DNA of 63,382 nucleotides, counting the filler, from Rhabdomonas costata (taxonomy: Eukaryota): NCBI GenBank assembly GCA_019059605.1. It is 44 parts of 44 records of this genome, joined end to end, with 100 filler letters (N's around TTAATTAATTAA, not from the genome) between each part and the next. Parts side by side here need not be neighbours in the genome. Positions count along the whole stretch, not along the records: positions 40,400 to 41,742 come from JAHMHO010018784.1; 43 more parts are not named here. One strand, written 5' to 3'. Of this stretch, positions 5,601-55,100 are shown piece by piece. The position numbers and the translations under genes were made by a program. Numbering within the stretch: the stretch's first letter is position 1; every line of letters starts with the position of its first letter. The notes beneath the pieces were generated by a model. That model searched no databases. It saw only the letters and a program-made list of their open reading frames with translations, and was not told the origin of the DNA.

Positions 5601-6181
5601 AACCACTCCTTCTTCTTCTTTATTAGGTCCGTCAGTGGGGTTGCCACTGTGGGGTAATATTCCACCAACCAACNNNNNNNNNNNNNNNNNNNNNNNNNNN
5701 NNNNNNNNNNNNNNNNNTTAATTAATTAANNNNNNNNNNNNNNNNNNNNNNNNNNNNNNNNNNNNNNNNNNNNGGTTTGTGTGGGTCCCAAGGGCGCCCT
5801 GGCGGTTGTCGAGACCGTTAAGGTATTTTTTGAAGGCGTTGGGGGGAGTGCTCGCCGTTGCTGTGCACCGGCTCTGTTTAGAGGATGTCCGCGCGTGCGT
5901 GCGTGCCTGCAAGTCTGCTCCCAACGGTTATGCAGCTTAGTTGTGATGGGATATGTCTTGAACACCTGTGCAGGTCGTCACCCGTTGGTTACTGCTGGGC
6001 ACTGCGGTGTTTACCGCATACCCCATCAGCCCCTGTCCCCTGAATATTTCGCGTCCGTCCGCTTCCTTCCAATCAATTTCAGGAAAATTTACCACCATTT
6101 TCTTTGAGAAGTGTGGAAGAGGAAAAAGGAGGGAGGAGGGAAAGCTCACTTCCTCGTGTCCACGGTGGGGACCGCGAACAG

Positions 6182-14739: not shown

Positions 14740-15367
14740 AGTCCCTCTAGTATAGCGCTAATTTTGGTTTCAGCTTCGCTACGCGCCGTGCGCGAATACA
14801 GCCCCAACTTGGTGTGTTTTCAAGATTCAAACATTGAAAGAAAAGGAAGTACGAAAGTACCTAGGATCTTGACCGCGAGCCCCTGGAGAATGCCTTCCAT
14901 TGAAATCCAAGGGGACACGTATCGCCTCCTAACCCCATGCAAAATCTTTTATTGGAAACGCAGGGGACACGTGAATCACTTCCTAACCCGCAAAAGTACA
15001 GCAAAAGTAGAGCAAGAGTAGCGATCTCTACACTAAAACTGAGAAACTGAGTGGCACCGCAACACCACAATCAGGGGGGGGGGCATCTATAGCCGGAAAG
15101 GAGACAAAAAAATGACTAGGTGGGCGAAATCGCTGCTTCTGCTGAGAGAGCCATGAAGCAAGTGTTGAGCAAGCAAGCACAAGGGGGGAAGAGTGTAGTG
15201 TCTTTACCTTTCCTTTTTTATTCGGGCACCAGAATTGGAAACTCCCTCTCACGCACACACAAATGTCCTTTGGGCTGACAAAAAAAGAGATGGGACGCCA
15301 TTGTCACCGGACAAAACTGACAAAGAGAATAGCAGAGCAGTGTGTGTGTGTGTGGGGGTGCCCATAC

Positions 15368-15754
15368 TCTGGCCACGTGGCTGATGCTGGCCAGGGCTTC
15401 CCCGCGGAACCCAAATGTTGCGATCCCACGAAGATCATCGAAGCTCCGCAGCTTGCTCGTGGTAAACCTCTCACACACGATGGACATATCCTCGGGCCGG
15501 ATACCGTGGCCATTGTCCTGGATCTGCAGTAGCTTCAGCCCCCCACCCCGAACCGTGACCGTGATCTGGGTCGCTCCCGCATCCAAGGAGTTCTCCAGGA
15601 GCTCTTTAAGCGCAGACGAGGGACGCTGCACAACCTCACCTGCGGCTATTCGATTGACAACGTCCGGGGGAAGCTTTTGAATCGCCGGAATCGCCGGGCC
15701 ATCACTTCCCACGACGGCTCCACAGGAGGATGTGCTGTGTTCATCCAAATCCAT
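15368..15754 (-). CDS. MLH1: DNA mismatch repair protein MLH1, first exon
   Basis: [34 protein letters not shown]...[15 protein letters not shown]...CERFTTSKL...[16 protein letters not shown], followed by a GT donor at 15367. Confidence 0.95.
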
Positions 15755-16059
15755 AGTGGTTTCCAAAACACANNNNNNNNNNNNNNNNNNNNNNNNNNNN
15801 NNNNNNNNNNNNNNNNTTAATTAATTAANNNNNNNNNNNNNNNNNNNNNNNNNNNNNNNNNNNNNNNNNNNNGGGGGTTTGGGAAATGAAAGGAAAGACC
15901 TGGAGTACTGACAAATGGAATGTTTTCCACAGGTTTGATCAGTTTTAACTGTCCAATAAACACATTCAACACCAATAAGGGAAACGTTTGCCACAGATCC
16001 AATTGGATGGACACGAGCGGTTGTAACAACGATAGTCTATTCCTTTTGCCAAAGAAAAT

Positions 16060-21900: not shown

Positions 21901-23094
21901 AGCCAGGCCCCTGGTTCTCATGAATTCGGCTCTGGCCCAAGGCATCGTTCCGGACCCCGCCAATCGCTCGCTATTTTGTTACTGCTATGCATGTCTACTT
22001 TGTGGAGCTCGTGCCTCCTCTCCCCTTCATTGCCTCTCCGCCCTTTCCACAGGCAGCTCACAAGGCCCTGACTTCATTGTCGCCCTTCCCCAGCTATAGC
22101 CTTCTGCTCTACCCCGCGGCCCCCGCTCGTGTGGGAGCTCCAGTTTCTGCTCCCCGTCCCACTGAGGTTGTTCAGCAACACACACACACACACACACAAA
22201 CAAACACAGACATGTGTTTGTATGTGTTTGTACGCTGGCTTTCGGATTCCTATTGGGACATTTGCAGCCACACTCACGCAGACACTCCCCCGTCATGGAT
22301 TGTTTTCTTTGGCAAATGCTAACACTCTACTCAGAGCTTAGTTCTGGATAAGCTGGTACCCCGTTGTACACACCAGAACCACGCTGTTCTGCTTGGGTCT
22401 GAGCCTGTGCCCCCTTTTCTTTATTGGATTTCCTGCACCCCAAAACGGGCTTCGCTGTGAACTTTTGAATTGAATAGAGCTTTAAACTGCCCTACGCTGA
22501 ATTTCGAACTGGTTGAGCTTTGAACTCTGAATTCTGAATTGAGCTTTTGCCCAGTCTTCAAGGATACAAGGATATGATATGATATCTGAGTTTTTGATGG
22601 TTTTGATGGTTCTGTGAATTTAACTGCCCTGATTAAAGTATGCCTATTATTATTGCCCTACGTTGAACTTTGAGCAATGAGCTTTGAACTGAATTGACTT
22701 TTGAGCACCCCCACATTGAACTCTGAGGTCGATGCAACCCTGCCTATGCAATTTCGGTGCAACCCCATTCTCGACTGAAAGTCTCTCATAGTTCTTCTTG
22801 GGTCCACCTTGTGAGAAGAAGGGGGGACAAGAGCGATTGTGCCGGAATGACGGGGGCTGCATGTTTTTTTTGGGTAACCTTCCAGATCGTCCCCATATCC
22901 CCCGAGAATTGCCCCTCCACCTCGGCCGCGACTGCTGCAGTCCCTGAGGACCCGCCCGGAGCCTCCCAGCTCCTTCCCCACACCACNNNNNNNNNNNNNN
23001 NNNNNNNNNNNNNNNNNNNNNNNNNNNNNNTTAATTAATTAANNNNNNNNNNNNNNNNNNNNNNNNNNNNNNNNNNNNNNNNNNNNGTTGTTGG

Positions 23095-23137
23095 GGGACC
23101 CTTAGCGCTGCGCCCGGCGCGCAGCGCCCATACTTGT
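23095..23137 (+). mobile_element. Helitron-like 3' terminus (9-bp GC stem then ACTTGT)
   Basis: A GCGCTGCGC-ccggc-GCGCAGCGC stem is followed by CCATACTTGT. It shares the GGGACCC..TTAGCG leader with 14698-14739. Confidence 0.45.
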
Positions 23138-23211
23138 CTATTCTCTGCCCTGCCATTCAGGCCGGCATTTTTTGTGCCTATCCGACATATACTCGCCGAA
23201 GAGCAACCACT

Positions 23212-23820
23212 ATGCACGGCAGTACCTGTACCCCTGCCAGCGTGCCACCCGCTGGGGAGGCGTCTCCTCTGTGGTGTGTGTGGTCCGACACCTGGGACAC
23301 CCTGGGGGATCACCCCCAGCAGTCCAGCCTAGAGCTCCTGCAGCGGTGCGGCAGCCCCGCGGCGTTCCTCCAAGAGCTGTGCCAGCGGTCCCCCTCGAAG
23401 CTTTTGGACTGCACCAGCGTGCACATCTTCGTAGAAGGGGTGCAGCCGACCTACGAGGACCCCACTAACCGCCCCGGAGGGCACTTCAAGCTGAGCGCGA
23501 GCACGATCCCGGCGGCGGAGCTGCTGTGGGCCACACTGGGCCAGGCGTTGCTGCTGCGCCAGCTGCCAAGGATGGAGAAGGTCGTCGGGATCAGCGCCTT
23601 CCGCAAGCAAAGGGCCAACTTCGCGGTGAAGGTGTGGCTGAGGGACTCGCTGGACAAGACCCACATCGGAGAAGTCCGCGAGTACCTCACCTCCGTGCTG
23701 GACCACTCCTGGTTCAACTTCATCCGCTTTTGCTCTCATCGCTTCATTCTGCAGACCCTAGAGAAGCAGAAATCCCACCAGCTGCGCCGCCGCCGCAGCA
23801 GCAGCACACTCCATCCTCGC
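23212..23820 (+). CDS. Divergent eIF4E-family cap-binding protein (first exon; probable second exon ~24090-24243)
   Basis: WCVW...HIFVEGVQPTYEDPTNRPGGHF...LLW...VVGISAFRK...VKVWL...RFCSH aligns with the eIF4E core. GT at 23821. Confidence 0.85.
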
Positions 23821-24288
23821 GTTCGGTTCCGATTTTTTGCCCGGGTCTCGGTACCTGTGCACAGGATCCTTCCCTCATTCGGCAACCTGTTACACTACCG
23901 TTCCCATCCCTGGCCTTTCCTCCGCTGATTCTTGCCGACATTTCTGGAGAGGTACTCGCTGTTTTTATGTTTAGTCTTGGGTATTGGGTCTCCTCCACCT
24001 TCCATCTCTTCATTTTGAACTTGCTGGAAATTTTTGAAATCTGTGTTTTGAAGGGTGCTGCAATCTCCATTCCTTTCTCCGCCTTCAGGATGCAAAAGCA
24101 GCTGTTGCGCGCGCAGTCGCCGCAAGACGCGCGGGTTTTACGAGGCCCCGTTCTCTCCAGAAATGCCCGGAAGCAGAAGCGGCTGCGGAGACGGGGACGA
24201 TTGGCGCGGCGGTGCAGCCGTCAGTTGGCTGCCCGCCTGCAGGTGGATACACTCTCACTTCCTGTCCCTCTGAGTTGGGTTGTCTTTT

Positions 24289-25969: not shown

Positions 25970-26995
25970 CTGCTAGTGCTGACACGAGAAAGCTTCCGAA
26001 TCGCCACCCCCATCGCCGAAGAGGGGACAGAGATGAAGGTGGAGGAGTTGGCGGTGGTGGACGGGCTGCCATCCGGGGAGCTGGCAGGTACCGCCGCGGT
26101 CTTCCCGGCGGCGTACCTGCGCATGTAGCCGTCGTGCAGGCCCCCCACGAAGGCGGGCTGGAAGGCACAGATGGAGCGGCCCACCAGCTCCGAGCTGGGG
26201 TAGCCTAGCGAGGCGCAGAACTCCGGGCTGCAGCTCAGCAGCACCCCGGTGGAGTCTGTGGTGGCCCACAGCTGCTCCTGTGGGTATGTGTGCGCGGCGA
26301 TGGAGCGGCCAGGGGCGGGCTTTTGCATGTGTGTGTGCGCCGGTCCCCTGGGTCCCAGCTGCACACCTCGGGCTCAACACGTCACGTCCTGTCCCCTTCC
26401 GACAGGCAGGAGGGGCTGCGCGACCTCTCCCCAGTGGAAGTACTGCCCCATTGTCTCTGAGGCTCTGGAATGTTTTTCGGGAAGGGCCTGGGTTCCGGAG
26501 CCTAGTGCTGGTCCGCAGAGCAAAGATGACAGTGAACCAACGGCAAAGGTCGCCAGCCCAAAAAGCTCCCCAACCAAAAACCGCATCGCATTCCTCCCCA
26601 CCCTGTCACCCCAATGCAAATAACTCCAAGAACGCCCCAGAACAACTGAAAGTCTTCGCCTGGGAGTGTATGCCAGGACTTCAACCACTTCAACAGTGAT
26701 GGTTATCACAGCTGAGGACCTCATCCTTGGGAAGGGAAGGATACCACAACCCACACACGAACGAACGCAAAACAAAGCGGAAACAACCTCCTTGCGGAAG
26801 TCGATCTGGTGCTCGTCGTCGCCAGCATTCTTCGCAGCGTTCAGCATCACCGAGCTGATCATGCCGTACACCTTCAGCCACGCTGCCTTGGTCTCCTCGG
26901 TCATGTTAGGGCCCAAAGTCTTGGCCAGGACCTTGATCAGGGCCTCACCAACCAATGGATAGTGCAGCGCGGTCACGCCGTACTTCAGGTGCCGC
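25970..26995 (-). CDS. Globin-PAS fusion sensor protein, two exons (partial)
   Basis: Exon 26995-26788 reads RHLKYGVTALHYPLVGEALIKVLAKTLG...AAWLKVYGMIS (globin F-H helices). It is joined by a phase-0 GT-AG intron to an exon from 26277 reading TDSTGVLLSCSPEFCASLGYPSSELVGRSICAFQP...HDGYMRRY (PAS). Confidence 0.85.
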
Positions 26996-29900
26996 CTGCG
27001 ACCCCCCCCCACCATGCACCCATCCGATAGGCTACCATCCTGGTTACCATCTTCGTGGTAAAAGGCCACTTGAACAAGCGAATCTGTCCACCTTGCTACA
27101 GCCTTCAACAGGAGCCACGACCAGCCGGTCGGTCAGTCGCTCGGTCGCTGGGTAGGAACGACTTGGCGAGCGCCGCGGGCAGCGAACAGTCCAGGGCGCA
27201 TCACCGCACAAAAATTCGTGGTAACGCTATTCCTACAGATAGCACCCAAAAGTTCCCGGGCCACTTAGCACCCATATTCACAACTAAAAGTTCACATAGT
27301 GGCCCCCCAACCNNNNNNNNNNNNNNNNNNNNNNNNNNNNNNNNNNNNNNNNNNNNTTAATTAATTAANNNNNNNNNNNNNNNNNNNNNNNNNNNNNNNN
27401 NNNNNNNNNNNNTTTGTTTGGTCACCGTTTTCCAACGATCACATTATGAGAATAAACTGTGCGTTAATGCGGGTTTGGTGAAGCTGGGTCACTGGGACTG
27501 TATAAGTTTGTATAAGTTTGTTTATGTTTGTGCGCGAAAGAAAAAGACGAAGGAGAAGGGGAAAACGGGAAAGAAAAGGGGAAGAAAAAATGCTGTCCAA
27601 GTCAAGACGCGCGCAGCCTGGGTGCTCGCACGGAGGGTCCTATAGCACTGCCAGGTGCCGCTCCGGCTCACCACAAGACAGGCCAGGATGCCCCCGCCAG
27701 CCCCGCGGGTCCCAGACTTCAAGGAAACCGCGCATACAATCCTTTCTGCTGCCCAACACTGGGGCGCGAAATTCAAGCAAAAGTGGGAATTAGCACGTCG
27801 CCATGAGGCTCTTCCTCTCTGCCCAAACCGGAAAGAAAGCTGGGAAGAAGTACACAGTTCCCGCCCATCCTGCGGCTCGATGGCGGGACTGGAAACAAAT
27901 TACCCCTGCCCACAAGGAGGTCATTGTGAATGCGCACGCGGCGAAAGTGTAGAAGATGCCCGCGCTGCTTCATCCCATTTTTCAACTGCAACAATCAGCC
28001 ACTCTACACCTCACACCTTCCTGTCTCCCACCTTTTCCTTTCTCGCTCACTCGACTTATCAACATTCTGATAAGTACCCACAGCGTTGTGCAAAACTTAT
28101 TGTGCGTCAATGTTGAAAAGTCGTTCCAGCAGTGATGAACTCCCCATGACGAAGAACCAGTAATGCCTCAACATTCACCTTAACCGTTAACCGGGCGAGG
28201 GGACGGGGGTTCCGTCCATTTTTGCAAAATGTTGTCTGGAGTCTTATTTTTGGAAAAAGATGGCTTTTAAGGAGTTTGTAGCACCTAAATTAAGGTTTCG
28301 GAAATGATTTGCGAAAACACGAGTCATCATGTGTCATGGCATCTCTCACTTTCATTAAAAACCAACAACCACCATCCTGCAAAAACAGGAGGAATCACAA
28401 CAATGTTCCAGCACACACTCAACCTCCCCCCTCTCAACCCCACTCCAGAAAAAGTACACAAACCAAGCTGCTTCAAGGTCTCCCACGCCCACAGCACCTC
28501 CGTGTGCATCTGGTGCCGGAGCATCGCGCGAAACGACAACACCAGCACGCCCTTTCTCTCTTCTTCAGACTGCTGAGGGGACACACAAGCCATCAAACAG
28601 AGCGGCAGGTTTTCTTGGGATGAAGTGTCCTCAGAAACGGAATGTTTTCTTGCTTACGCGTGTGACATGTGCGGATGTGTGATGGGGTGCGAGTGAGGAG
28701 GAGAGGAGGAGAGGAGGAAACAAGCAACCGTTACCATAGACCGTAAACCAAATATNNNNNNNNNNNNNNNNNNNNNNNNNNNNNNNNNNNNNNNNNNNNT
28801 TAATTAATTAANNNNNNNNNNNNNNNNNNNNNNNNNNNNNNNNNNNNNNNNNNNNTTGTGTGGGGCAAACAAACATTTTGTGGGCATTCTTCAACGCCGG
28901 ATTGTCGCAGAAACACCACCAAAGCGGCGTTGAAGAATGCCCACAAAATGTTTGTTTGCCTCACAGCAACTGATAATCCAGAGACCTGCAATAATTGTAA
29001 CGGAAACAAGAAACAAGAACTGATGTTCCACCCTATTCAACTTTCTCTTTCAAAAATTGACCAGAAAGAAACGGCACGTTTGTTTTTCCATATAGAGAAA
29101 TGTTACCTTCCGTGCAATGACACGGCACCATATGGGTTTGGTGAGATTACGCGTGTCGTCTGCTGACTTAGGGCTTAAGTCCCACCTCCTCCCTGTTGAC
29201 AGGAGGGGGGACTTTGAACGGCATAACGACGTTATGCGGCATAACTACGATAGATGGAAACAACGTAACACGGCAACAACGGGAAGTTGGAACAGAAGGC
29301 ACGTTGACTATTTAATATATATAATAAGGATTGTGGGCGGAATTACTGCTCGTGGCACAATGGGAATCCTCGTGCCTTCTAGCAACTAGCCAGCAGCCCT
29401 TCCTGCAGGCTGGAGGCGATGATCCCGTCATATGGGGGTTACTCTGGGCACTAAAGACCAACCCAACGACAACAGTTTCACCGCGTTTCATCCGATCTTA
29501 GCACCCAAAAGACAACCTAACTATCGTTATCAGTGTTCATCGCGGTTTCCCTCCCTCCTTTCGTCAGTTTTGATTGTGCCATATGACTGTTTCGTTACAT
29601 TGCAACCAAATCCATCTCCTCCCTCGTTTCACGCACCCTATTCAACAGCAGGGCTTTCCCACCCCCGTTGTAAAGGCTGTAGTGAGCTTTCTTCAAAGTG
29701 TTCCCCGGTACCCTTCCTCGTGGCCCCATTAGACTTTCTTTTCTATGTCTCGTGGCCTTTGACCACAGGGGAAATACCTCAGACCATGTACTATCAACTT
29801 TAGCTGCGAAGCGCCCTTTTTCCGCCATTATTGCCTTTGGGGTTCTTGGTGAAGAATTTTCGACCAGGCAACCTTTGACCATTAAAAAATACAGCTCGTT

Positions 29901-40399: not shown

Positions 40400-41090
40400 G
40401 TTGTTTTTTTTCAGTTATTACTTTTTTTTCAGGTTCTTCTTTATCTGTTGATTTAACAATGGACAGTTTTTTTACTTTATTTGTATATTTATATTCAATT
40501 GTTTTTGCCGAATCACCTTTACCGATCATAACTTTCATAGGTTCATCTAATTTTTGACGAATACCAGTATATGAATATTCTTTATGTTTACTTCCACGAG
40601 TACATTCTTTTATTTTGAAAATAAAAGGTTTATTATCAAGAGAAGTATCAGGTTCAACATTTTTAATAATTGCAGTTAATGCTTTATTTGCAGCCTGTTT
40701 TGGTTTATTACCAGAAAAACGACCATATGATTCATTTTTATAAACTAATTTAAAATATCTTGTTACTTTTCCATTTTTTTTAGTTTTATTTTCACTATCT
40801 GCAACATCTGATTTTACTAAATCAGATACATTTTGTTTGTCAGTAGTAGGAGCGGCATCATCACTTTTTCCTCCTTTTAATAGTTTTTTAACACGTGGTT
40901 TCTTTTCTTTAGTAACAACTTCTTTTTTTGTTTCTTGTGTTGTTTCTTGTTTTATTTCTGGTTTTGATTCAGATATATCATTTTTTTTAGTATCAGTTTC
41001 TTGTTTGACATCCAGTTCTTGTTTAATTTCAGTGTCACCCTTAGTATCAGCTGTTTTAGATTGTTTTGTTTTTTTGATAACAGTTGCCAT
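40400..41090 (-). CDS. Giant-virus MC1-domain DNA-architectural protein (3'-truncated)
   Basis: Intron-less AT-rich ORF with a Lys/Glu-rich N-terminus, then RYFKL...GRFSGNKPKQAANKAL...IKECTRGSKHKEYSYTG.RQKL.EP, the MC1-like domain as seen in Mimiviridae. Confidence 0.85.
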
Positions 41091-41197
41091 ATTTACTAAT
41101 ATTATTTATATATAATTTATTTCAAAAAAAAACACAGTAAAAAATATATAATTATGTCAACATAAATTTTATATATTTTCGAGTTATATATTAAAAA

Positions 41198-41742
41198 ATG
41201 AATGTAAATTTTCACATTTTACAACATTATTATATAGTATACTCTAAACATATTTATAGTATTTATTGTCATATTGAAAATTGTGTTGATAGTAACATTA
41301 TAGCTATATATAATAGAAACAATTATCTAAAAATTATAAATAAAATTATAAAAATATTAAATGAAGAATATAATGCTCATATAAAACAATTAAAAAATAT
41401 TCAAACGTCTAAAAACAATGAACATTTAATTTATGAATTATATCAATTAACAAATATATCTTATGATAATATCATAAATAAAAATGTATATATGCCATTT
41501 AAAAATGTATATCATGAATTGTGTATGTTAGCAAAAGAAATAGGATTTAAAACAATTGACGACGGTATGTTGATGTTATGTGGTGAAAAATATAAACTTA
41601 TATATACAAAACAAATAATAAATAAATTAGAAGAAATAAATATGTTATTTATTCCATTAAAATATAATGTAATAGATGCAAAACATATAGAAGATATACA
41701 ATTAGAAGATATTACAACAAAACACCAAACTCACCTAACACA
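41198..41742 (+). CDS. Giant-virus ORF, probable N-terminus of a Mimiviridae Lon protease (3'-truncated)
   Basis: AT-rich ORF divergent from the MC1 gene. Motifs ILQH.Y...HIE.C...RN.YL and PF...L..LAK.IGF...FIPL.Y resemble Mimiviridae Lon N-termini. The protease domains are not in the contig. Confidence 0.55.
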
Positions 41743-43367
41743 NNNNNNNNNNNNNNNNNNNNNNNNNNNNNNNNNNNNNNNNNNNNTTAATTAATTAANN
41801 NNNNNNNNNNNNNNNNNNNNNNNNNNNNNNNNNNNNNNNNNNTGGGGGGTTTCCGCTGCCGGCGGAAGAGGCTAGATAGACCCACCTGGTAGAACCCCCC
41901 GGACAGCGATAAGAGAAAGAACGGAAGAATAAGGTGACGATGACGAAAAGCCCCGGCGGCCTCGAAAGATGGACATTGTCAACTTCTTTTGCTTGCTTTG
42001 TCCTGGAAAAGCTGTGGTGTGGACCTTTGTGGTGCTACCCAATGTTGTTTCCCTTCCGTCCGCGGCGCTGGTCTTTGTCCCTAAAATAACTGTGTCCCTT
42101 TTGGTAGGCAATTCCTGGGAACCGTTAAATCGCCGTTCGCAGAAGTTAGCCGCTTGCACACCAGAGAAGCCGGGGAAAGGTACCCCAGTAAAAAAGGTCA
42201 ATATTGCAACATACCGTTTAACAACCTAAAACCAATCAACATCGGAAAACCGTTTAACACCCCCCCCCCCAAAAAAAAAGTATCGGACCGGTCGGCCACG
42301 ACTTTTGCCATTTTCAGACAACTGAGAAACGGAAGATTGACTGGCACTACAAAGCAACCACGTGATAAACACAGCATCGCCAAGCGACCACGTCAGCGCA
42401 AACCCATACACAGCTTTCCGCATTCCAAATCTACGACAGTCGTTCTGCAAAGGCCCCCTGCCTTGAAGTAGTATAGCCTTCATCGCGGTGCGGACAAATG
42501 GGAAACAAAACTCGCGGAATAATATAGCAGACAAAACCCTCCCGACCAATTCAAGCACCAAGACAATCACATGAAAGCAACGTGCATACACGAATATCTG
42601 AGCCTAGCACAACCTAAACAGTTGGTGCTCGAGCGGCCGCTTGCGGCCTAGGCAGCGGGTTATGAAAGCAAAAAAAGGGATGTTGGTGCACAATGTTGTG
42701 ACGGATGGCCACGTAGAGACGATAGTCCTCGAAAATCACCCACGTCACCAGGACGCAGGCCGCGGGAGTTAACATATTTGTGCAAGAGAGCAATAGCATC
42801 AACCCCATAAATGGCAGGGAAACCCACACCAGGCCCTGAAATCAGAGACAGGTTATCGTGAAATTAAAAAAGACGGACACGAACAGATTGCACAACAGCT
42901 GATCCGCGCGATAACCAAATTCTTTCCACTGTGTCAAACAAGGTGGGGTCCGAGGCACTCAGAGGTGGGATGTTATTTCGTAAACAGATCAAAAATAGTT
43001 TGCCTCCGAAGACGACGCCCAAAAATCACTACACCCAAAAATGCAGAACAAGACCGCAGGAAAACCCACACCAGGCCCTGAAATCAGAGACAGGTTATCG
43101 TGAAATTAAAAAAGACGGACACGAACAGATTGCACAACAGCTGATCCGCGCGATAACCAAATTCTTTCCACTGTGTCAAACAAGGTGNNNNNNNNNNNNN
43201 NNNNNNNNNNNNNNNNNNNNNNNNNNNNNNNTTAATTAATTAANNNNNNNNNNNNNNNNNNNNNNNNNNNNNNNNNNNNNNNNNNNNGGGGTTTTTGAAG
43301 AGATTTATCAGTAATCTTTTTATTCCATCCACAATCTAATATTCTTAATGATTTTAAAGTTATAAAA

Positions 43368-44141
43368 TTGTGTACAACATCATTAGTCATTGATAAACAT
43401 ATATTTAATAACATTAAAATTCTAAAACATATTCAAGTTTTAAATTTATGTCAAAATGAAATGATTACAGATACTATTTTTAAATATTTTGTGTCATTAC
43501 ATACACTTATATGTGGTCATAATGAATCAATAACAGACGACGGTATTATTTATTTAAAATCATTAAGAATATTAGATTGTGGATGGAATAAAAAGATTAC
43601 TGATAAATCTCTTCAAAAACTTCAATCATTAACATTTTTAAATTGTGGTCATAATACAAATTTTACAGATAACAGCCTTCAGCTATTATCAACATCTCTA
43701 AAAACATTAAATTGTGGTTGTAATGGTAATTTTACGGACGATTCCATTCAAAAACTTCAATCATTAACAAATTTAAGATGTGGATATAATAATAATTTTA
43801 CAGATAATTCCCTTAAAAAATTATCGTTATTACAAACACTTGAATGTGGATACAATAAAAATTTTACGGATAACGGCCTAAGACCGTTATCATCATCATT
43901 AACATCTTTAAATTGTGGTAATAATACAAATTTCACAGATATTTCTCTTGAAAAACTTCAATCATTAAAAATGTTAAGTTGTGGTTTAAATAATAATTTT
44001 ACAGATGACGGCCTGAGACCGTTATTATTATTACAAATACTTAATTGTGGTTATAACACAAATTTTACAAACCATGGAATAAATAATTTATCATTAACAT
44101 TATTAAATTGTGGTTTAAATATAAGACATACAATCATATAA
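43368..44141 (+). CDS. Giant-virus-type leucine-rich-repeat protein (5'-truncated)
   Basis: About ten 22-23 aa repeats L..LNCG.N.NFTD.SL..L, AT-rich and intron-less. Confidence 0.85.
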   Translation: MCTTSLVIDKHIFNNIKILKHIQVLNLCQNEMITDTIFKYFVSLHTLICGHNESITDDGIIYLKSLRILDCGWNKKITDKSLQKLQSLTFLNCGHNTNFTDNSLQLLSTSLKTLNCGCNGNFTDDSIQKLQSLTNLRCGYNNNFTDNSLKKLSLLQTLECGYNKNFTDNGLRPLSSSLTSLNCGNNTNFTDISLEKLQSLKMLSCGLNNNFTDDGLRPLLLLQILNCGYNTNFTNHGINNLSLTLLNCGLNIRHTII

Positions 44142-44150
44142 TTTTAAATA

Positions 44151-44158
44151 AAAATTGA
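44151..44158 (+). promoter_or_regulatory. Mimiviridae early promoter octamer AAAATTGA
   Basis: Exact AAAATTGA in the 68-bp intergenic gap, about 50 bp upstream of the ATG at 44210. Confidence 0.75.
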
Positions 44159-44209
44159 AAATTAAATATAATAACAAGTAAAATTAAATAAATATAAACT
44201 TGTAATAAA

Positions 44210-44630
44210 ATGAACAATTTACCAATTGATATTTTAAATTATATAATTGAATTTGTTGATAAATCAATAAATTTAAGATTATTAAATAATAAATTCTGTT
44301 ATATATGTACTTATCATATTAATATAATATTGTTACATAATTATGTAATACCAATAAATTTTAAAATAACAAAATTATATTTATCATCAACAACAACAGA
44401 CAAGGATATAATTAACAATTTAAATGTATTAAAAAATATAAAAATATTAGATTGTTGTAATAATAATTTAATTACAAATAAATCCATTCAAAAATTTCAA
44501 TCACTAGAAGCATTAGATTGTGGAGATAATAAAAATTTTACTGATGATTCACTTCAAATATTTCAATCATTAAAAATACTTTATTGTAGATATAATACAA
44601 AATTTACAGATAAATCCATTCAAAAACCAC
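44210..44630 (+). CDS. F-box-like/LRR protein, tandem paralogue (3'-truncated)
   Basis: N-terminal MNNLPIDILNYIIEFV (F-box-like), then LDCG.N.NFTD.S repeats. Confidence 0.8.
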
Positions 44631-49161: not shown

Positions 49162-52100
49162 GCAATTTTCACCTCGCCACATCACAGAATGGCACGAACG
49201 GAATGAATCGGAACGTATTCACGACAAATTAGAGTCCAGGGTTGCATCTGCACTGAGGAAGAGATGACCACTACGTTCATACCGCCTCGCGGGCATGATG
49301 CACCAGAACCAAGGCAAGGGACAGCAGAGGAGCAGTGACTGCGCTAGGAAGCTGCGGCGGAAGTTGAGTGGGAAGCAACCGGTGGAACACTGCCTCGAGA
49401 ACCTCCCGGCTGCCCAGCAAGGGCTCCGCCTCCTGCCATAAACCCACAGTTCACGCGCGTGCGCGCGCCACACACACACACACACACACATCTCCCACCC
49501 GGTTGGGGGAAGCGAGAACAAAAAAATAGCGGACATTGGAATTTACAGAGGTTTGGAGCGTGGAGCGTGCAGAAAAATTCCTGACAGAATGGCAGCCTTC
49601 TTTGAAAAGGTTTCCACCTTTTTGTCATTCATTGTGGAGTCTGTAAATTCGCTTGCGCTTTTGCAACAGATTGGGAGAAATTGGGATGCGTATGGATGGA
49701 AAAGGTATGGGTGACAAGCACGAGAGAAAGAAATTATTCGCATTTACTCTGCATGCAGTTGTTATTTGGTGAAACGCGCTATATGTGGCTAATTCTGTCC
49801 CACTGAGTGGCAGTCTCCAGTGCTTCACAGCTGGCTTCTACTCCTGGGACATCAAAGCCCATCCCCCCCCCACACACACACACAAACAGAGGCACAGAGC
49901 CGTACCTCCAGTGCTCGCCGAAAGATCGGAAGAAGCACATGGGTGAGGCAATTCGCCCGGACCTCTGCAGGAGCCGTGGGTATCACGTGCTCGCAGAAGT
50001 GAAGGATCACCTATTGCCACAAAAAAGCCCCCATTCCAGAAGAATATTGACGCTCGTCCGCCCCAGGCCTCTCATACCCATCAGTAGCCATTCGAGTTCA
50101 CAATTCAGCGTCCAAAGTCCGATACCAGATAAATCTGGATACACCCCGCTCCAAGGGGATTTCTGATGTGCATGAACGAATGTTCACTGAAAATCGGGTA
50201 CAGGTAGCAAACGCATCAATCCTTGCCCCTGAAGGTGAAATCTATTGCATAAAGGCAGCCTACCCATGTCAAACCTGCTGCCGGTGTCTCAACGGAAAGC
50301 GGGGGAGCTCGTCAGAGAAGAATCGGGCCACGAAGCGGTAGTCTGCGCAGGACCTAATGGTAGGGAGTCAAAGGGTGGAGCCACGGGGAAGGACACAAAA
50401 AANNNNNNNNNNNNNNNNNNNNNNNNNNNNNNNNNNNNNNNNNNNNTTAATTAATTAANNNNNNNNNNNNNNNNNNNNNNNNNNNNNNNNNNNNNNNNNN
50501 NNGGGGTGGGTGCCGGTAGTGTGTAGCTCCTTGGTCGCCTCAATCAGCAGCTCCATGACGGTACACGTGGCTTCAGAGCCGTCCAGATCGTGCTCCACGT
50601 ACACCTGTCCAGAACAGAGGGTGAACAGCCACGATGGAAGGGGGGGCATTCCTGGGTGACTGGGAGGACGCATCTTATTCCAGTGCTCGAAAGTTGACGA
50701 CATTTTGAGAGACCACCGACCACACAAAGAGAAGGGCTACAGTGCGCAGGCCTTCCGGAAGACCGTCCAGGTTTTGTGTGGCAATCGAGCGCAGTATGGT
50801 TGACGTTACCACGCTGCAAAAGCGACAAAAGGCATTGCAATGCAAAAATAGTGCAAAGTGAAGGGAAAAGAGGTGTCTGCGTGTGTGTAGGGGGTCTTCT
50901 TACGCTGCTCTGACCTCCTAAAAATTGAAGAAAAAATAGGACTCGATCGAAGAGAGATTACCATGACAATCCGCGTGACGCTCGGTATACGCAAAGAAAC
51001 GACAACCATGGAGTAGAAAAGGAAGTAGTGATGACGGATTCAAGAAATTCGTATTCACAGACAGCCGGTTTACTTCCCGACATCCACATAGTTTTCACCG
51101 TGACAGCGAAAAAGTCTACAGGAGAAACGCGGCAGCCCCAGAGGGCCAACATACAATTGAGCGTCGGCCTGGGATAGCACATGACGCCTCCTCAGAAACA
51201 AAGCGCTGTGAAAAGCGTGGGTGGGTAAATTGTACATGAGCACCCACAATGTAGTTCCGAACCAGGATGAGAAAGAGTCAAGGACGCAACAAGTACCAGT
51301 TGAGGCCCACCAAGCCGTACCGGCGAACCAGAAGAAAATGCAGAGTAGCGTTCTGGAGCAGGATATTACACCCGTAGGCCAAGATAAACTCCGCCTTGCA
51401 CAACTCCGTCGCCTCGGCCTCCGCAGCGCCGGTATGGTCATCCACAATGGCCTTACAGAAGTACATTACCTCCTGGCACACCAATGTGGCCTGGGGCTTC
51501 TGGTGTTGTTTCGGGTTGATCGCAGTCACGGCCGGATTGTTGTCCTGTGTCTGGAGCTTTGTTATTGTACAGTGAAGCAGAAGAGCCTGATTTTTTCTGT
51601 GGATCTGACAATTATGAAACTGCGGCCGATCTTCACGGCGTTTTTGCATCATTTGCGGAAGACGATGCGAAGGGTGGCCCGTGCCTTGGCTGTGTTGGTG
51701 CAGGATGCGCGGAAACTGGTTTTGCAACAGCAGCCTGACCATTTGCCCATGTGGCAGCTACAAGCTGGCACCACTGACTTCTAGCAGTGGCTAGAAGTGG
51801 TTTTTGTTTCGCGTTTGTTCGTGACTCCGAATTCAGACAACCGATNNNNNNNNNNNNNNNNNNNNNNNNNNNNNNNNNNNNNNNNNNNNTTAATTAATTA
51901 ANNNNNNNNNNNNNNNNNNNNNNNNNNNNNNNNNNNNNNNNNNNNAGCAATGCATCTGCCGTTTACTGCCACCAGTAAAATAGTTGCCACCACTGGCATT
52001 TGCAGTTCAATTTCACAACTGGAATTTGACTTTAACTGCAACACTTAGGACATTCCTAGCAATTATGTCAATTTCTGGTATCAGTTCATATTTCAGCTAG

Positions 52101-55100
52101 AATTTGCTGCCGCTAGCGTTGTGAGAAACGTTTTGCAAGGCAAAACAAAGCCATAAATCCCACATTTTTATCACCACATTTACATGGGTAGTATGTTAGT
52201 ACGCATTCACTTGACGCCTAGGAATCACATGAATAGGTGCATTTATGACACCAACTATCAAGTGGATTTATGGGCCCTATTACTTAATAACTGATATTTA
52301 TGAGACTTCGTGGTGAACGTGTCGCTCAATTCCAGTCTCAGAACGTGTCTTGGTAACAAACCCAGAAACATAATGCCATGGTAACAATTCCACAGTTTTT
52401 ATTTCAACCAATTGTGCACCGGAATTATTTAAACAGAACCAGTCACTCATCACGCGTGCTGGAAAACTCCTCACTTTTATTCTCGTTATCTTGTGGTCTT
52501 GGAAACCTGCTCACTGCATAGAAAAAACGCTATCGCGGATTGAAAAACGACTCTTTGTCTTGTAAATTGTGAGAACAACACCAAAACCCGCAAATGTGGT
52601 TTTGAGTAGGTCAAAAACATTGTCTGATACCAGATGTGATGTGCGGAGACTTCCGCAAGAATTCATTATTGACACCTTACCATCCTCCGTGTGTTTCTAT
52701 AAATACGGAGCCTATATGGTGAGACTTTTTGCGCTGCTAATTTGCAATGTTACACACTGATATACACTCATCCACAAAAAGATACTCCCAGCGCTAATTG
52801 TGCTCAAACCATCAGCGTCAATTGTAATTTTAACTTTTGAGTTTTGTATTGAGGATAATGACTTTAACTATGTTCTTTTATGGGACTTATGTGCACTTCT
52901 AGAGTGAAAGGAACACAGCCTTAGCGGATTTATGTGAGGTGTGAAACAAATAAAGAATAACCAAACAATTGGGTTACGCAAAGATATTCCAACACTTACA
53001 CACACCTAATTTGAAAGCCAAAGCACAAAAATACCAAATTTATCTTTGATCAATTTCCATTTGTATAAGGCAAATACGCAATAGTAAACGCAGCACAAAT
53101 GTGCAAATGCAATCCCAAAGAAAAGCAAAGACACAAACTTCCAACATTTGCATTGATAAAGTGACAAAACTCGAAATAAAAAGGGGCTTAAAATGGACAA
53201 TAATTCGGTATCTCGTTACCCCCTTCCCCCGCCGGTCAATGTTGGACCCGAAAAAGTGCAGGGCCGGGAGGGACATACTACCACCATANNNNNNNNNNNN
53301 NNNNNNNNNNNNNNNNNNNNNNNNNNNNNNNNTTAATTAATTAANNNNNNNNNNNNNNNNNNNNNNNNNNNNNNNNNNNNNNNNNNNNCGGAGGCCCCAG
53401 TTCATGCGACGTATCGTCCGCTCATCTCAGCATCTGTTTCGCCGGTTGCCGTCAGCGAACTGAACAAGGACTTGGCGGCGCTTTGCGGCAGGGAGCCCGG
53501 GCAAAACCTTCGGGAATATCTAACGCCAAACCTGACCCTCGAAAGGGTTAAACGTATTGGATGTATTTCTGCCCGGCTTCCGGTCGTTCGCCAACCAGTC
53601 GCCAAGGACGCGGCGTGAACCCGGGAAGAGAACATGGCCGACACCAAGTCCGATGAAGGCGCGGCGCCCCACGGGAACAGGGACGCATCCGCTTGATGTT
53701 ATGTTGCGTACCCTTCACCGCAGGATATATTGATGTGAAACGCGATGGGGCAGCCAGCATTTCATCTTGTATGCCAGCGAAGTTCGGTAGAAGGTGGTAC
53801 CAAGTCTGGTATATTAACGCGCTTTCCATAGCATCCACAGCAAATAATGATGAAAACAAATCGAGGGCAAATCCCAGCAATGCACAGAGCAGATCCAGGA
53901 CTGCAGATACTCGGCAAAGTGCCGCGGGTGAGACCTTCTTTGATTTCCCATACCACATGAGAGTACAATAGGAAGAGGATAACCTTTGCCACGATGGTTG
54001 AAAGCACAATGCTCACAGCCTCAGCAAGGGTTGCAAGAGGAAAAAAACTGTACCCAACTTAAAGTTCATTCACTCCCATTGCCACGTATACAACGTTAAA
54101 CAACCTATCACCACGTTGTCCTGACGGGTTGTAGGGTCCACAGCTTGGTACACCGCCAAGACAAGTGCAGTCGCGAGCTCAGTGAGGCGCGAAGGCAGCG
54201 CGCAGAGGCCGTGCTGTTAGACGCACCGACCTGGGGTACGAAAAGAAAGAATGCCGGTGAGTAGCACATCCTACGATTCGGTTTTGTGGGTTGGGATAAT
54301 CACTTCGTATGACTTGGGTCAACGCAGCACCAGGGTACCAAGGGCAGAAAAGGGAATGTATACGAGTGCATCCGAGCTATTGCGACCACATCCTACTCCC
54401 CCAGAAGGAAAGATACCGTCGCCAAGAGCTGTCCCTGCGCAAAGCGCCACTGAACGGGGCGGACCTCGTCACTAAGCGCGCAGGGAATCAGCTTGAGAGC
54501 CATGCTTCTCGAGTCTGTGACCTTTTGATTTTTTATTAGAAGGGTTCGCAGTGGTCCTGCACGTCCTGCTCAGCAGAACTGGTCAACGGGTATTCTTCAC
54601 GTCAGTCGGTCATGTGTCAACTGAGGGTGAAGGCATGCCCGTCACTATGCACGTGTATCGCCCTTGAACGCCCATCTCCCTGCAAATCATTCGTTGAAAC
54701 CCAGCGGACTCGTCCATCGCCATCTAACCCNNNNNNNNNNNNNNNNNNNNNNNNNNNNNNNNNNNNNNNNNNNNTTAATTAATTAANNNNNNNNNNNNNN
54801 NNNNNNNNNNNNNNNNNNNNNNNNNNNNNNGGGGGGTGTTGGGACACGGCGATGAAATGCACTAATCGAAAGTGCAGAAAGTGGGGAAGGGGTTTGTTAG
54901 ACGAGAGGGGAGGGAAAACAACAGGAGACTGTGAGGTAGTTGTATTTGAAGAAACTGGTGGGAAAGTCAGACCAAAGCAGGTCAATTCGTACGGTCATTG
55001 GTTCAGGATTTTTCACGTAATAACAATCCTGTTGCATCCACATCGCAAGGGACAGGTTCACACTTCATAAAACAGCACTATGCTTGTCATTCAGAAAACA

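What the first reader, a model, noticed from the sequence alone, without database searches (positions are those of the whole stretch)
40400..41742. Mimiviridae-like contig (MC1 gene divergent from probable Lon) inside a protist assembly: candidate new virus-host link
Seen: the contig is far more AT-rich than its neighbours, intron-less and gene-dense, with head-to-head ORFs about 107 bp apart, one with a clear MC1-like domain. Recalled knowledge: Acanthamoeba mimivirus has a Lon homologue (L251) beside an MC1-like gene (R252) in divergent orientation. Inference: an Imitervirales virus was co-amplified with this probable euglenozoan cell, by infection, ingestion or endogenisation. Giant viruses of euglenozoans are sparsely known (Bodo saltans virus is the cultured example I recall), so the pairing could be new.
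Basis: partly seen in the sequence, partly recalled or inferred. Interest (0 to 1): 0.75.

Follow-up and report, generated by a model that had tools for sequence, protein, structure and literature searches.

The report
Giant-virus fragment in a protist assembly
A 1.3-kb AT-rich scrap in this protist assembly is a piece of a mimivirus-like giant virus, carrying the gene for its DNA-packing protein back to back with a Lon protease gene, but the scrap alone cannot show that the virus infects this protist.

Summary
Contig 40400-41742 has 22.3% GC, against 46-60% for 41 of the 43 other contigs. It is 92% coding and holds two head-to-head frames exactly 107 bp apart.

The minus-strand gene is a homologue of Mimivirus R252 (gp275/ILS1): a disordered lysine-rich half followed by an MC1-type DNA-bending domain. 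Its own sequence misses Pfam MC1, but close homologues pass the curated cut-off. The plus-strand gene is the first 181 residues of a giant-virus Lon protease. Full-length relatives carry AAA+, Lon_lid and Lon_C.

The same divergent Lon/MC1 pair stands in 31 of 39 IMG/VR giant-virus loci (27 of 33 distinct). Two relatives lie in bins with NCLDV capsid and A32 genes. So a viral, mimivirus-like origin is well supported.

The host link is not testable here. No whole assembly or reads were available, and both contig ends lie inside viral frames. No near-identical sequence was found elsewhere (best 71% amino-acid identity).

This scan had already noted two other AT-rich giant-virus-like contigs in the same assembly (e1-7141344, e1-7216957).

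Verdict: a new member of a known kind, of moderate-to-low interest. The conserved Lon/ILS1 pair is a useful by-product.

The parts
40400..41742 (.). One whole 1343-bp contig of giant-virus origin, with 22.3% GC and 92% coding
40400..41090 (-). Gene for a homologue of Mimivirus R252 (gp275/ILS1), 230 aa. It runs off the contig after the domain, so at most a short C-terminal tail is missing.
   Evidence: 161 homologues at E<=0.01, best 2.5e-36. Alignment A1. 17 of 39 members match PF05854.
40776..41090 (-). Disordered K/E/T-rich N-terminal half (residues 1 to about 105)
   Evidence: AlphaFold2 pLDDT of 41-54 per 10-residue block with no secondary structure. This region is variable and low-complexity in all homologues.
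40461..40763 (-). MC1-type domain (residues 110-210), with order beta1-beta2-alpha1-beta3-beta4-beta5. The helix motif KPKQAANKA includes the invariant K131.
   Evidence: pLDDT of 87-97. Invariant columns. Profile match to MC1 chain 1t23 at E 0.097. Homologues score 34, 30.7 and 27.8 bits against a cut-off of 23.
41091..41197 (.). 107-bp AT-rich divergent spacer that must hold both promoters
41120..41137 (-). Upstream element (CTGTGT, a T-run, then GAAA) about 30-47 nt before the MC1-like ATG. It is the window's version of an element conserved before this gene in one group of relatives.
41198..41742 (+). First 181 codons of a giant-virus Lon-type protease. This is the helical N-terminal extension; the AAA+ and protease domains lie beyond the contig end.
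   Evidence: Search hits P0122-P0137 and their Pfam domains. tblastn to the loci. Alignment A2. Model.
43288..44630 (+). Second low-GC contig (20.6%), probably from the same or a similar virus. It holds two tandem LRR genes (about 43368-44141 and 44210-44630) and one AAAAATTGA at 44150-44158 in the spacer between them.

Best explanation
The contig is a fragment of the genome of an uncultured mimivirus-like (Imitervirales-type) giant virus.

The minus strand encodes the homologue of Mimivirus R252 (gp275, also named ILS1). It has a disordered lysine-rich half and then an MC1-type DNA-bending domain. In Mimivirus this protein binds, bends and condenses DNA. It phase-separates with DNA to form the inner layer of the viral factory, it is packaged in the virion, and it is likely essential.

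The plus strand is transcribed divergently from a 107-bp spacer. It encodes the N-terminus of the Lon-type AAA+ protease of these viruses.

The pair and its shared short promoter region form a conserved synteny block of this virus group.

Shown here: the homologies, the synteny, and the viral context of the relatives.
Inferred: the functions, from the Mimivirus experiments.
Undecided: where the DNA sat. It could have been in virions, in an infected cell, in another organism of the sample, or in a recent insertion. The unameliorated composition and the intact frames argue only against an old, eroded insertion.
For: MC1-like gene:
- It has 161 homologues at E<=0.01. The best (P0001) scores 2.5e-36, with 69% identity over the domain.
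- 17 of the 39 aligned members match PF05854 at E<=0.1, best 3.7e-8.
- Of 10 close homologues rescanned, all list MC1 and 3 pass the 23-bit cut-off.
- The only PDB hit of the family profile is MC1 chain 1t23, at E 0.097.
- The model has a confident domain in the published MC1 strand and helix order.
- K131 is invariant. It aligns with the archaeal Arg, and it is the Lys that the preprint mutated as K126.

Lon gene:
- 17 representatives match at E<=0.001. The query aligns to the N-termini of proteins of about 930 aa.
- Of the 7 long proteins scanned, 5 have AAA, Lon_lid and Lon_C. The other 2, which are shorter, have AAA and Lon_lid.

Synteny:
- Lon lies directly upstream and divergent in 31 of 39 IMG/VR loci, which is 27 of 33 distinct groups.
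- In 7 of 11 JGI metagenome loci Lon lies upstream on the opposite strand. In two of them, L044 and L047, it lies about 1.4 kb away.

Viral context:
- The contig names include GVMAG bins.
- Of 3 records searched, 2 giant-virus bins (547 and 675 kb) hold 3 and 4 NCLDV capsid genes and an A32 ATPase.
- The nearest Atlas clusters are 100% viruses, Nucleocytoviricota.
- No relative was found in 185,579 prokaryote species genomes or in the phage records.
- The relatives are equally AT-rich, at 16-30% GC.
- The window shares the upstream element of one group of relatives.

Function: Mimivirus R252 papers, read as passages.
Against: - The window's own protein gets no Pfam MC1 hit at E<=1.
- No hallmark gene (capsid, PolB, A32, VLTF3) can lie on 1.3 kb, and the rest of the assembly could not be searched.
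- Placement at order level was not tested against named reference viruses. The preprint also reports gp275 homologues in chloroviruses and in one Marseillevirus MAG, so the MC1-like gene alone is not specific to Imitervirales.
- MutS_V, recalled as a Mimiviridae marker, was found in only 1 of the 4 relative records searched.
- The octamer AAAATTGA is absent from this contig.
- That Mimivirus L251 is a Lon homologue is recall only.
Confidence: 0.85

Rival explanations
1. Bystander virus. The DNA comes from virions, or from an infected cell of another eukaryote in the culture or sample, or from reagent or run carry-over. It has no biological tie to the assembled protist.
For: The contig is short, and nothing joins it to host-like sequence. 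Viruses of this group are common in freshwater and soil metagenomes: 39 IMG/VR loci and 11 JGI loci were found. Only 2 of the 44 contigs of this window are of this composition.
Against: Earlier notes of this scan report two more AT-rich giant-virus-like contigs in the same assembly, so this is more than a single stray read. No near-identical sequence was found in IMG/VR or in JGI metagenomes; the best match was 71% amino-acid identity and 67-74% nucleotide identity over 200-300 nt. There is therefore no sign of a known laboratory or environmental contaminant.
Confidence: 0.45
2. True host link. A mimivirus-like virus replicates, productively or persistently, in this (reportedly euglenid) protist.
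For: Both frames are intact and strongly constrained. The composition is unameliorated. Several viral-type contigs are reported in the same assembly. A giant virus of another euglenozoan, Bodo saltans virus (Imitervirales), exists.
Against: There is no direct evidence of any kind: no coverage data, no read pairs and no transcripts. A replicating virus usually assembles into long contigs, whereas here the pieces are about 1.3 kb.
Confidence: 0.2
3. Endogenous element. The fragment is part of a recently integrated giant-virus insertion (GEVE) in the protist's nuclear genome.
For: GEVEs are documented in Euglena gracilis (PMC12455990, passages). The same assembly holds several viral-type fragments.
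Against: Both contig ends lie inside viral frames, with no host-like flank. The contig has 22% GC and GC3 of 7-10%, against about 50% in the host contigs, and the frames are intact. This is unlike the eroded, transposon-invaded Euglena GEVEs, which are also Asfuvirales and not Imitervirales.
Confidence: 0.15
4. Not viral. The contig comes from an AT-rich cellular organism or an organelle.
For: Lon proteases and MC1 proteins are cellular in origin, and low GC alone fits many symbionts and organelles.
Against: The nearest relatives of both genes, and the gene pair itself, lie on giant-virus contigs and bins. No relative was found in the GTDB species genomes. The Atlas neighbours are 100% viruses. 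The N-terminal extension of this Lon is not the cellular Lon N-domain.
Confidence: 0.03

Closest known systems
Mimivirus R252 = gp275 = ILS1 (preprint 10.1101/2024.02.22.580433; PNAS 2025 PMC12415211; passages read)
   Same: The architecture is the same: a disordered basic N-terminal half followed by an MC1-type domain with beta1-beta2-alpha1-beta3-beta4-beta5. A Lys sits in the helix where archaeal MC1 has Arg. The gene sits in a giant-virus genome next to a gene on the opposite strand.
   Different: I had no R252 sequence to align, so identity to it is unknown. The window protein is at most 71% identical to anything found. Its DNA binding, phase separation and packaging are inferred, not tested.
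Archaeal chromosomal protein MC1 (PDB 1t23, 2khl, 2nbj; Pfam PF05854)
   Same: The profile of the viral family matches residues 2-31 of 1t23, which cover beta1, beta2 and the start of the helix. Close homologues cover Pfam positions 3-73 of 96 above the cut-off.
   Different: The viral proteins carry a long disordered N-terminal half and have Lys for Arg in the helix. The window protein itself is below Pfam detection.
Lon-type proteases of giant viruses (for example the 948-aa gene of L003; Mimivirus L251 by recall)
   Same: The window's 181 residues align with the N-termini of these proteins, sharing conserved motifs. The same divergent position beside the MC1-like gene is seen.
   Different: Only the N-terminal extension is on the contig. 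That extension is predicted to be all-helical. Pfam finds no cellular Lon substrate-binding N-domain in the relatives at E<=0.001. The catalytic parts cannot be checked here.
Known giant-virus links of Euglenozoa: Bodo saltans virus (Imitervirales, a kinetoplastid host) and Euglena gracilis GEVEs (Asfuvirales) (PMC12455990, passages)
   Same: This is giant-virus DNA associated with a euglenozoan. The type is Imitervirales-like, as in BsV.
   Different: BsV is an isolated virus with a proven host. The Euglena GEVEs are integrated, eroded and belong to another order. Here there is neither isolation nor a junction, and relatedness to BsV was not tested because no named reference was available.

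Membership tests
MC1 domain / Mimivirus gp275-ILS1 family | Sequence homology to proteins that pass the curated Pfam MC1 (PF05854) threshold | tested here: met
   The window protein matches P0005 (E 1.3e-29), P0006 and P0010 at 54-65% identity over the domain. These three score 34, 30.7 and 27.8 bits against a cut-off of 23. The window protein alone gets no hit at E<=1.
MC1 domain / Mimivirus gp275-ILS1 family | MC1 fold: beta1-beta2-alpha1-beta3-beta4-beta5 pseudo-barrel | tested here: inconclusive
   The model's elements are E111-117, E120-127, H130-145, E155-162, E171-189 and E196-208, at pLDDT of about 96. This order matches the published description. The structure searches gave no clear match.
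MC1 domain / Mimivirus gp275-ILS1 family | Basic residue in the helix needed for DNA bending (Arg in archaea, Lys K126 in gp275) | tested here: met
   K131 in KPKQAANKA is invariant in 39 of 39 aligned sequences. It aligns with the Arg of the 1t23 PRQAA motif.
MC1 domain / Mimivirus gp275-ILS1 family | Disordered N-terminal region before the domain (ILS1 scaffold architecture) | tested here: met
   Residues 1 to about 105 have pLDDT of 41-54 and no secondary structure. They are low-complexity and K-rich in all homologues.
MC1 domain / Mimivirus gp275-ILS1 family | DNA binding, bending and condensation; DNA-triggered phase separation; packaging in virions | not testable with these tools
   Known only for Mimivirus R252.
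Lon (S16) AAA+ protease | AAA+ module, Lon lid and the S16 proteolytic domain with the Ser-Lys dyad | not testable with these tools
   These parts lie beyond the contig end at 41742. They are present in 5 of the 7 long relatives scanned and in the L003 gene.
Lon (S16) AAA+ protease | The fragment is homologous to the N-terminus of proteins with that architecture | tested here: met
   P0122 (923 aa) scores E 5.5e-20 with query residues 11-174 against protein residues 6-169. P0123, P0125 and P0130 match likewise at their N-termini. tblastn to the loci. Alignment A2.
Lon (S16) AAA+ protease | Canonical LonA N-terminal substrate-binding domain | tested here: inconclusive
   No such Pfam family was found in the 7 long relatives at E<=0.001. 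The model is all-helical. The fold search gave no clear match. This is probably a lineage-specific extension.
Imitervirales / Mimiviridae-like genome | NCLDV hallmark genes (capsid, PolB, A32, VLTF3) on the same genome | not testable with these tools
Imitervirales / Mimiviridae-like genome | Nearest relatives lie in genomes with NCLDV hallmarks | tested here: met
   Of 3 records searched, the two giant-virus bins hold 3 and 4 PF04451 capsid genes and one A32 each. The third, a 57-kb fragment, has none. Two handles were not held.
Imitervirales / Mimiviridae-like genome | Conserved divergent Lon / R252-like pair | tested here: met
   Found in 31 of 39 IMG/VR loci, which is 27 of 33 distinct groups. 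That Mimivirus itself has it (L251/R252) is recalled, not checked.
Imitervirales / Mimiviridae-like genome | Placement inside the order in a tree with named reference viruses | not tested
   No named reference sequences were available. The unlabelled MC1-domain tree leaves the window in an unresolved cluster.
Imitervirales / Mimiviridae-like genome | AAAATTGA-type early promoter octamer before genes (motif recalled) | tested here: inconclusive
   There are 0 occurrences in contig 40400-41742. There is 1 in the second low-GC contig, in the 68-nt spacer about 52 nt before the ATG. R252 is an intermediate or late gene in Mimivirus, so absence here is not informative.
Giant endogenous viral element (GEVE) | Junction with host DNA, or host-type sequence on the same molecule | tested here: not met
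   Both contig ends lie inside viral frames that align with homologues to the last residues. This shows nothing beyond 1343 bp.

The most novel reading that the evidence does not exclude
The low-GC contigs of this assembly come from a mimivirus-like virus that replicates in, or has only just integrated into, this reportedly euglenid protist. If so, this would be the first Imitervirales-euglenid pairing. In print, the only virus-Discoba links I found are Bodo saltans virus, with a kinetoplastid host, and eroded Asfuvirales insertions in Euglena gracilis (PMC12455990).
Probability: 0.2. Interest if true: 0.6.

Novelty: new member of a known kind. Interest (0 to 1): 0.35.

Why it matters
Hosts of most metagenomic giant viruses are unknown, and Discoba have one isolated giant virus. 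A confirmed mimivirus-like virus of a euglenid would therefore add a host lineage. This contig cannot deliver that. It only marks the assembly as worth binning and checking.

The by-product may be more useful. The gene for the viral-factory scaffold and DNA-condensing protein (R252/ILS1 family) sits head to head with a Lon protease gene in most relatives examined. These relatives span two deep groups whose upstream elements differ. The three R252 papers I read hold neither 'Lon' nor 'L251' in their main text. The pairing suggests co-regulation and, by analogy with cellular Lon acting on nucleoid proteins (recalled), a testable protease-substrate relation.

Tried and rejected
- Whole-assembly search and binning: no genome is held.
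- Single-protein locus scan in IMG/VR: the patterns fell in the low-complexity half and nothing was found. The alignment-based scan worked.
- Phage records: no match.
- Rfam on the whole window: 0 matches.
- Bacterial promoter and terminator scan of the contig: 18 promoter-like sites against 14.4 +/- 3.7 in shuffles, and 0 terminators. This is uninformative.
- Structure searches with the MC1-like model: Foldseek against PDB gave nothing at E<=0.001. VIA-align wide gave a best Z of 4.1, with no MC1 chain among the 50 rows shown. The MC1 structures are small NMR models, so I read this as inconclusive.
- Foldseek with the Lon N-terminal model: nothing at E<=0.001.
- PDB sequence hits of the Lon fragment (Plexin-B2 at E 0.037, YvdD at E 0.28): taken as chance.
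- Complex prediction of the Lon N-terminal fragment with the MC1 domain: the verdict was 'no answer', score 0.00 (after queue-full tries). This is evidence neither way.
- MutS_V as an order marker of the relatives: found in 1 of 4 records, so not decisive.
- Published interactome: L251 is not among the preys in the 187-row R252 AP-MS list of PMC13186993 (supplement file 4). Supplement files 13-17 were not searched. This gives no support for a stable Lon-R252 complex.
- Paper searches for L251 or Lon in Mimivirus: 0, 0 and 2 irrelevant papers. Searches for 'Lon protease' with Mimiviridae or giant virus returned only intein papers or reference-list mentions.
- Second LRR frame in IMG/VR: no relative.
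- LRR homologues: 21 proteins at 29-51% identity, on contigs without taxonomy.
Full report
**What the window is**

The 63,382 bases are 44 separate contigs of 1340-1345 bp. They are joined by artificial spacers of 44 N, a 12-base all-frame stop spacer and 44 N. 'Neighbours' in this window are therefore only contigs of similar length from one fragmented assembly, not flanking DNA.

**Checking the observation**

- Contig 40400-41742 has 22.3% GC. One other contig (43288-44630) has 20.6%, one has 39.3%, and the remaining 41 have 45.6-60.2%.
- The contig holds two frames that both run off its ends. The minus frame goes from the ATG at 41090 to 40400 (230 aa). The plus frame goes from the ATG at 41198 to 41742 (181 aa). 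They are separated by 107 bp.
- 92% of the contig is coding, and GC3 is 7% and 10%.
- Frames of this length are not chance in such AT-rich DNA. Of 2000 first-order Markov simulations, 0 reached 230 aa and 1 reached 181 aa.
- No internal repeats of note were found.

**The minus-strand gene**

On its own the protein gets no Pfam MC1 hit, even at E<=1, and no PDB sequence hit at E<=10. A search of 5.8 billion proteins gave 161 homologues at E<=0.01. The best was 2.5e-36, with 69% identity over the domain.

I aligned the window protein with 38 of the 120 listed hits (A1). The alignment shows a variable, low-complexity, lysine-rich N-terminal half and a conserved domain of about 100 residues with 32 invariant columns.
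- 17 of the 39 members match PF05854 (MC1) at E<=0.1, best 3.7e-8.
- Of 10 close homologues rescanned, all list MC1. Three pass the curated 23-bit cut-off, at 34, 30.7 and 27.8 bits, covering profile positions 3-73 of 96.
- The family profile's only PDB hit is the archaeal MC1 chain 1t23 (E 0.097, residues 2-31).

An AlphaFold2 model built on A1 gives a disordered half, with residues 1 to about 105 at pLDDT 41-54. It also gives a confident domain at residues 110-210 (pLDDT about 96) with the order beta-beta-alpha-beta-beta-beta. That is the order the preprint on Mimivirus gp275 describes for MC1. Structure searches did not retrieve MC1: Foldseek found nothing at E<=0.001, and VIA-align gave a best Z of 4.1. 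I count the fold test as inconclusive.

The helix motif KPKQAANKA is invariant. Its second Lys (K131) aligns with the Arg of archaeal MC1. This matches the Arg-to-Lys replacement that the preprint reports for mimiviruses and tested as K126A.

**What that protein does in Mimivirus** (all from passages I read)

[quoted passage not shown] It is found in virions, is expressed from the intermediate stage, and is needed for viable progeny (10.1101/2024.02.22.580433).
- Under the name ILS1 it is the scaffold of the inner layer of the viral factory. It phase-separates only with DNA and is likely essential (10.1101/2024.09.01.610734; PMC12415211).

The window protein has the same two-part architecture, so I infer the same role. 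Nothing here tests it.

**The plus-strand gene**

Pfam finds nothing in the 181 residues. The two weak PDB hits are chance. A full HMMER pass over 1.84 billion representatives gave 17 hits at E<=0.001. One is a 169-aa fragment at 68% identity (P0121). Several are proteins of 728-985 aa, and the query aligns with their N-termini.

I scanned 7 of those long proteins. Five have AAA, Lon_lid and Lon_C. The two shorter ones have AAA and Lon_lid. So 'probable Lon' is right, but only the N-terminal extension lies on the contig.

That extension is conserved among the viral proteins (alignment A2) and is predicted to be all-helical. Pfam does not recognise it as the cellular Lon N-domain in the relatives, and Foldseek finds no match. 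It is probably lineage-specific.

**Synteny and viral context**

An alignment-based scan of IMG/VR returned 39 loci with the MC1-like gene, several on contigs named as giant-virus MAG bins and up to 1.15 Mb long.
- In 31 of the 39 loci a Lon gene lies directly upstream on the opposite strand. After merging near-identical loci this is 27 of 33 distinct groups.
- The 8 exceptions: two have too little upstream DNA (L011, L022). Two have Lon elsewhere (L019, L039). Four have none within reach (L023, L024, L031, L038).
- In a scan of JGI metagenome contigs, 7 of 11 loci have Lon upstream on the opposite strand. In two of them it is about 1.4 kb away. The closest one, L040, has it downstream on the same strand.
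- The relatives are equally AT-rich, at 16-30% GC, with spacers of 55-318 bp.
- Three records behind the loci could be searched. The two giant-virus bins (547 kb and 675 kb) hold 3 and 4 NCLDV capsid genes and an A32 ATPase each. The 57-kb fragment holds none. Two handles were not held.
- MutS_V was found in 1 of 4 records searched.
- Atlas neighbours of the MC1-like protein are clusters recorded as 100% viruses, Nucleocytoviricota (best score 0.90).
- No relative was found in one genome each of 185,579 prokaryote species or in 50,697 phage records.

The refutation 'best hits are cellular AT-rich organisms' is not met.

**Finer placement**

The spacers fall into two types.
- Type a has a conserved AT-only block directly before the MC1-like ATG.
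- Type b has an element of the form GTGTGTTTCTTTTT followed by an A-run, about 50 nt before the ATG. A strict pattern for it hits 12 times in all 39 loci. Eleven of those hits lie in the stretch just upstream of the MC1-like match.

The window carries a version of the type-b element at 41120-41137.

I built a tree of the MC1 domain with 62 rows: the window, 32 distinct locus sequences and 29 proteins picked from the 120 listed. Type-a loci form one clade (support 91/93), and the window lies outside it. The window sits in an unresolved cluster with P0005, P0006, P0008, P0001 and P0003, and no well-supported set holds it.

The best identities anywhere are 71% (L040, MC1 domain) and 68% (P0121, Lon fragment). 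The best nucleotide matches are 67-74% over 200-300 nt. The virus is thus new at sequence level and was not seen in these collections.

One relative, L003, shows the wider block: TFIIB, an unknown gene, Lon, the MC1-like gene, an unknown gene, a dual-specificity phosphatase and HSP70. From memory this resembles Mimivirus L250-L254, but I could not check that. Order-level assignment therefore rests on four things:
- the R252 family;
- the gene pair;
- composition;
- the size and capsid-paralogue number of the relatives' bins.

No tree with named references was possible. The preprint notes gp275 homologues also in chloroviruses and in a Marseillevirus MAG.

**The host link**

Nothing in the window bears on it directly.
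- Both contig ends lie inside viral frames that match homologues to the last residues, so no junction is visible.
- The unameliorated composition and intact frames argue against an old, eroded insertion of the kind described in Euglena gracilis, which belongs to Asfuvirales (PMC12455990).
- They do not separate a free virus, a persistent infection, a very recent insertion, or a bystander virus from another organism in the sample.

I scanned 32 of the longest open frames of the window. These were chosen at about 150 aa or more; the shorter ones were not scanned. Four frames on ordinary-GC contigs gave eukaryote-type or general domains: retroelement RNase H, HATPase, eIF4E and globin. That the assembly is a euglenid comes from earlier notes of this scan, which I did not test.

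The scan had already reported two other AT-rich giant-virus-like contigs in this same assembly, with the same conclusion that the host link cannot be judged (e1-7141344 and e1-7216957). Together with the second low-GC contig here, this suggests a real low-GC viral fraction worth binning.

**Literature on novelty**

As of the papers I could search, the only isolated giant virus of Discoba is Bodo saltans virus (Imitervirales). The only euglenid record is the Asfuvirales insertions of E. gracilis (PMC12455990, passages; search listing). An Imitervirales-euglenid link would be new if shown. It is not shown here.

**The Lon/ILS1 pair**

The three R252 papers that I searched for the words hold neither 'Lon' nor 'L251' in their main text. 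Paper searches for Lon with Mimivirus, Mimiviridae or giant virus gave nothing relevant.

The conserved head-to-head arrangement suggests co-regulation. It may also point to a protease-substrate relation, by analogy with cellular Lon acting on nucleoid proteins (recalled).

Against a stable complex: L251 is not among the preys in the 187-row R252 AP-MS list in the supplement of PMC13186993 (file 4). Files 13-17 were not searched.

**Verdict**

- The viral reading is supported.
- The host link is open.
- This is a new member of a known kind.
- Interest: 0.35.

Noticed in passing
window 43288-44630: A second low-GC contig (20.6%) holds two tandem leucine-rich-repeat genes (Pfam LRR_4 at 1.8e-10 and 1.2e-4). 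The nearest Atlas cluster scores 0.95, with 87% viruses, Nucleocytoviricota. Sequence homologues are only 29-51% identical and carry no taxonomy. The second gene starts with an F-box-like LPxDIL stretch (my reading; no Pfam hit). It is probably from the same or a similar virus.
   Followed up: partly
window 44150-44158 (+): AAAAATTGA, the recalled Mimiviridae early-promoter octamer with an extra A, lies in the 68-nt spacer between the two LRR genes, about 52 nt before the ATG at 44210. It is the only copy on either low-GC contig. My rough expectation is about 0.4 copies per contig on both strands and about 0.01 in that spacer on that strand, judged post hoc.
   Followed up: partly
window 43291-43365 and 43546-43620: A 75-nt inverted repeat, 96% complementary, has one arm at the very left end of the second low-GC contig. 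Both contig ends stop in the same LRR unit. This looks like an assembly break or chimera at repeated units, or an inverted paralogue fragment.
   Followed up: partly
L001-L039 (IMG/VR) and L040-L050 (metagenomes): The MC1-like (R252/ILS1-type) gene and a Lon protease gene are head to head in 31 of 39 IMG/VR loci (27 of 33 distinct). In 7 of 11 metagenome loci Lon lies upstream on the opposite strand. I did not find this pairing mentioned in the R252 papers read.
   Followed up: yes
L001-L005, L008, L010, L012, L035, L036, L038; looser versions in L027, L029, L037 and window 41120-41137: A conserved non-coding element, of the form GTGTGTTTCTTTTT followed by an A-run, lies about 50 nt upstream of the MC1-like ATG. 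A strict pattern hits 12 times in the 39 loci, and 11 of those hits lie in the stretch just upstream of the MC1-like match. It therefore looks gene-specific rather than a general promoter. A second group of loci has a different conserved AT-only block instead.
   Followed up: partly
L003 1-10300: The neighbourhood of the pair in a 482-kb viral contig is TFIIB, an unknown gene, Lon (948 aa), the MC1-like gene, an unknown 373-aa gene, a dual-specificity phosphatase and HSP70 (933 aa). From memory this resembles Mimivirus L250-L254. Not checked.
   Followed up: partly
window 41198-41742 and alignment A2: The first 180 residues or so of these viral Lon proteins form a conserved, predicted all-helical extension: a long helical hairpin followed by a small bundle. 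It has no Pfam family and no Foldseek match, and it is not the cellular Lon N-domain.
   Followed up: partly
window 51946-53288: A contig with 39% GC and no open frame of 90 aa or more on any strand. It is intermediate in composition between the host-like and viral-like contigs. Its origin is unknown.
   Followed up: no
window 5218-5673, 15221-15772, 23089-23925, 26377-27132: Ordinary-GC contigs carry a retroelement RNase H piece, an HATPase_c domain, an eIF4E domain and a globin domain. This is consistent with a eukaryotic assembly.
   Followed up: no
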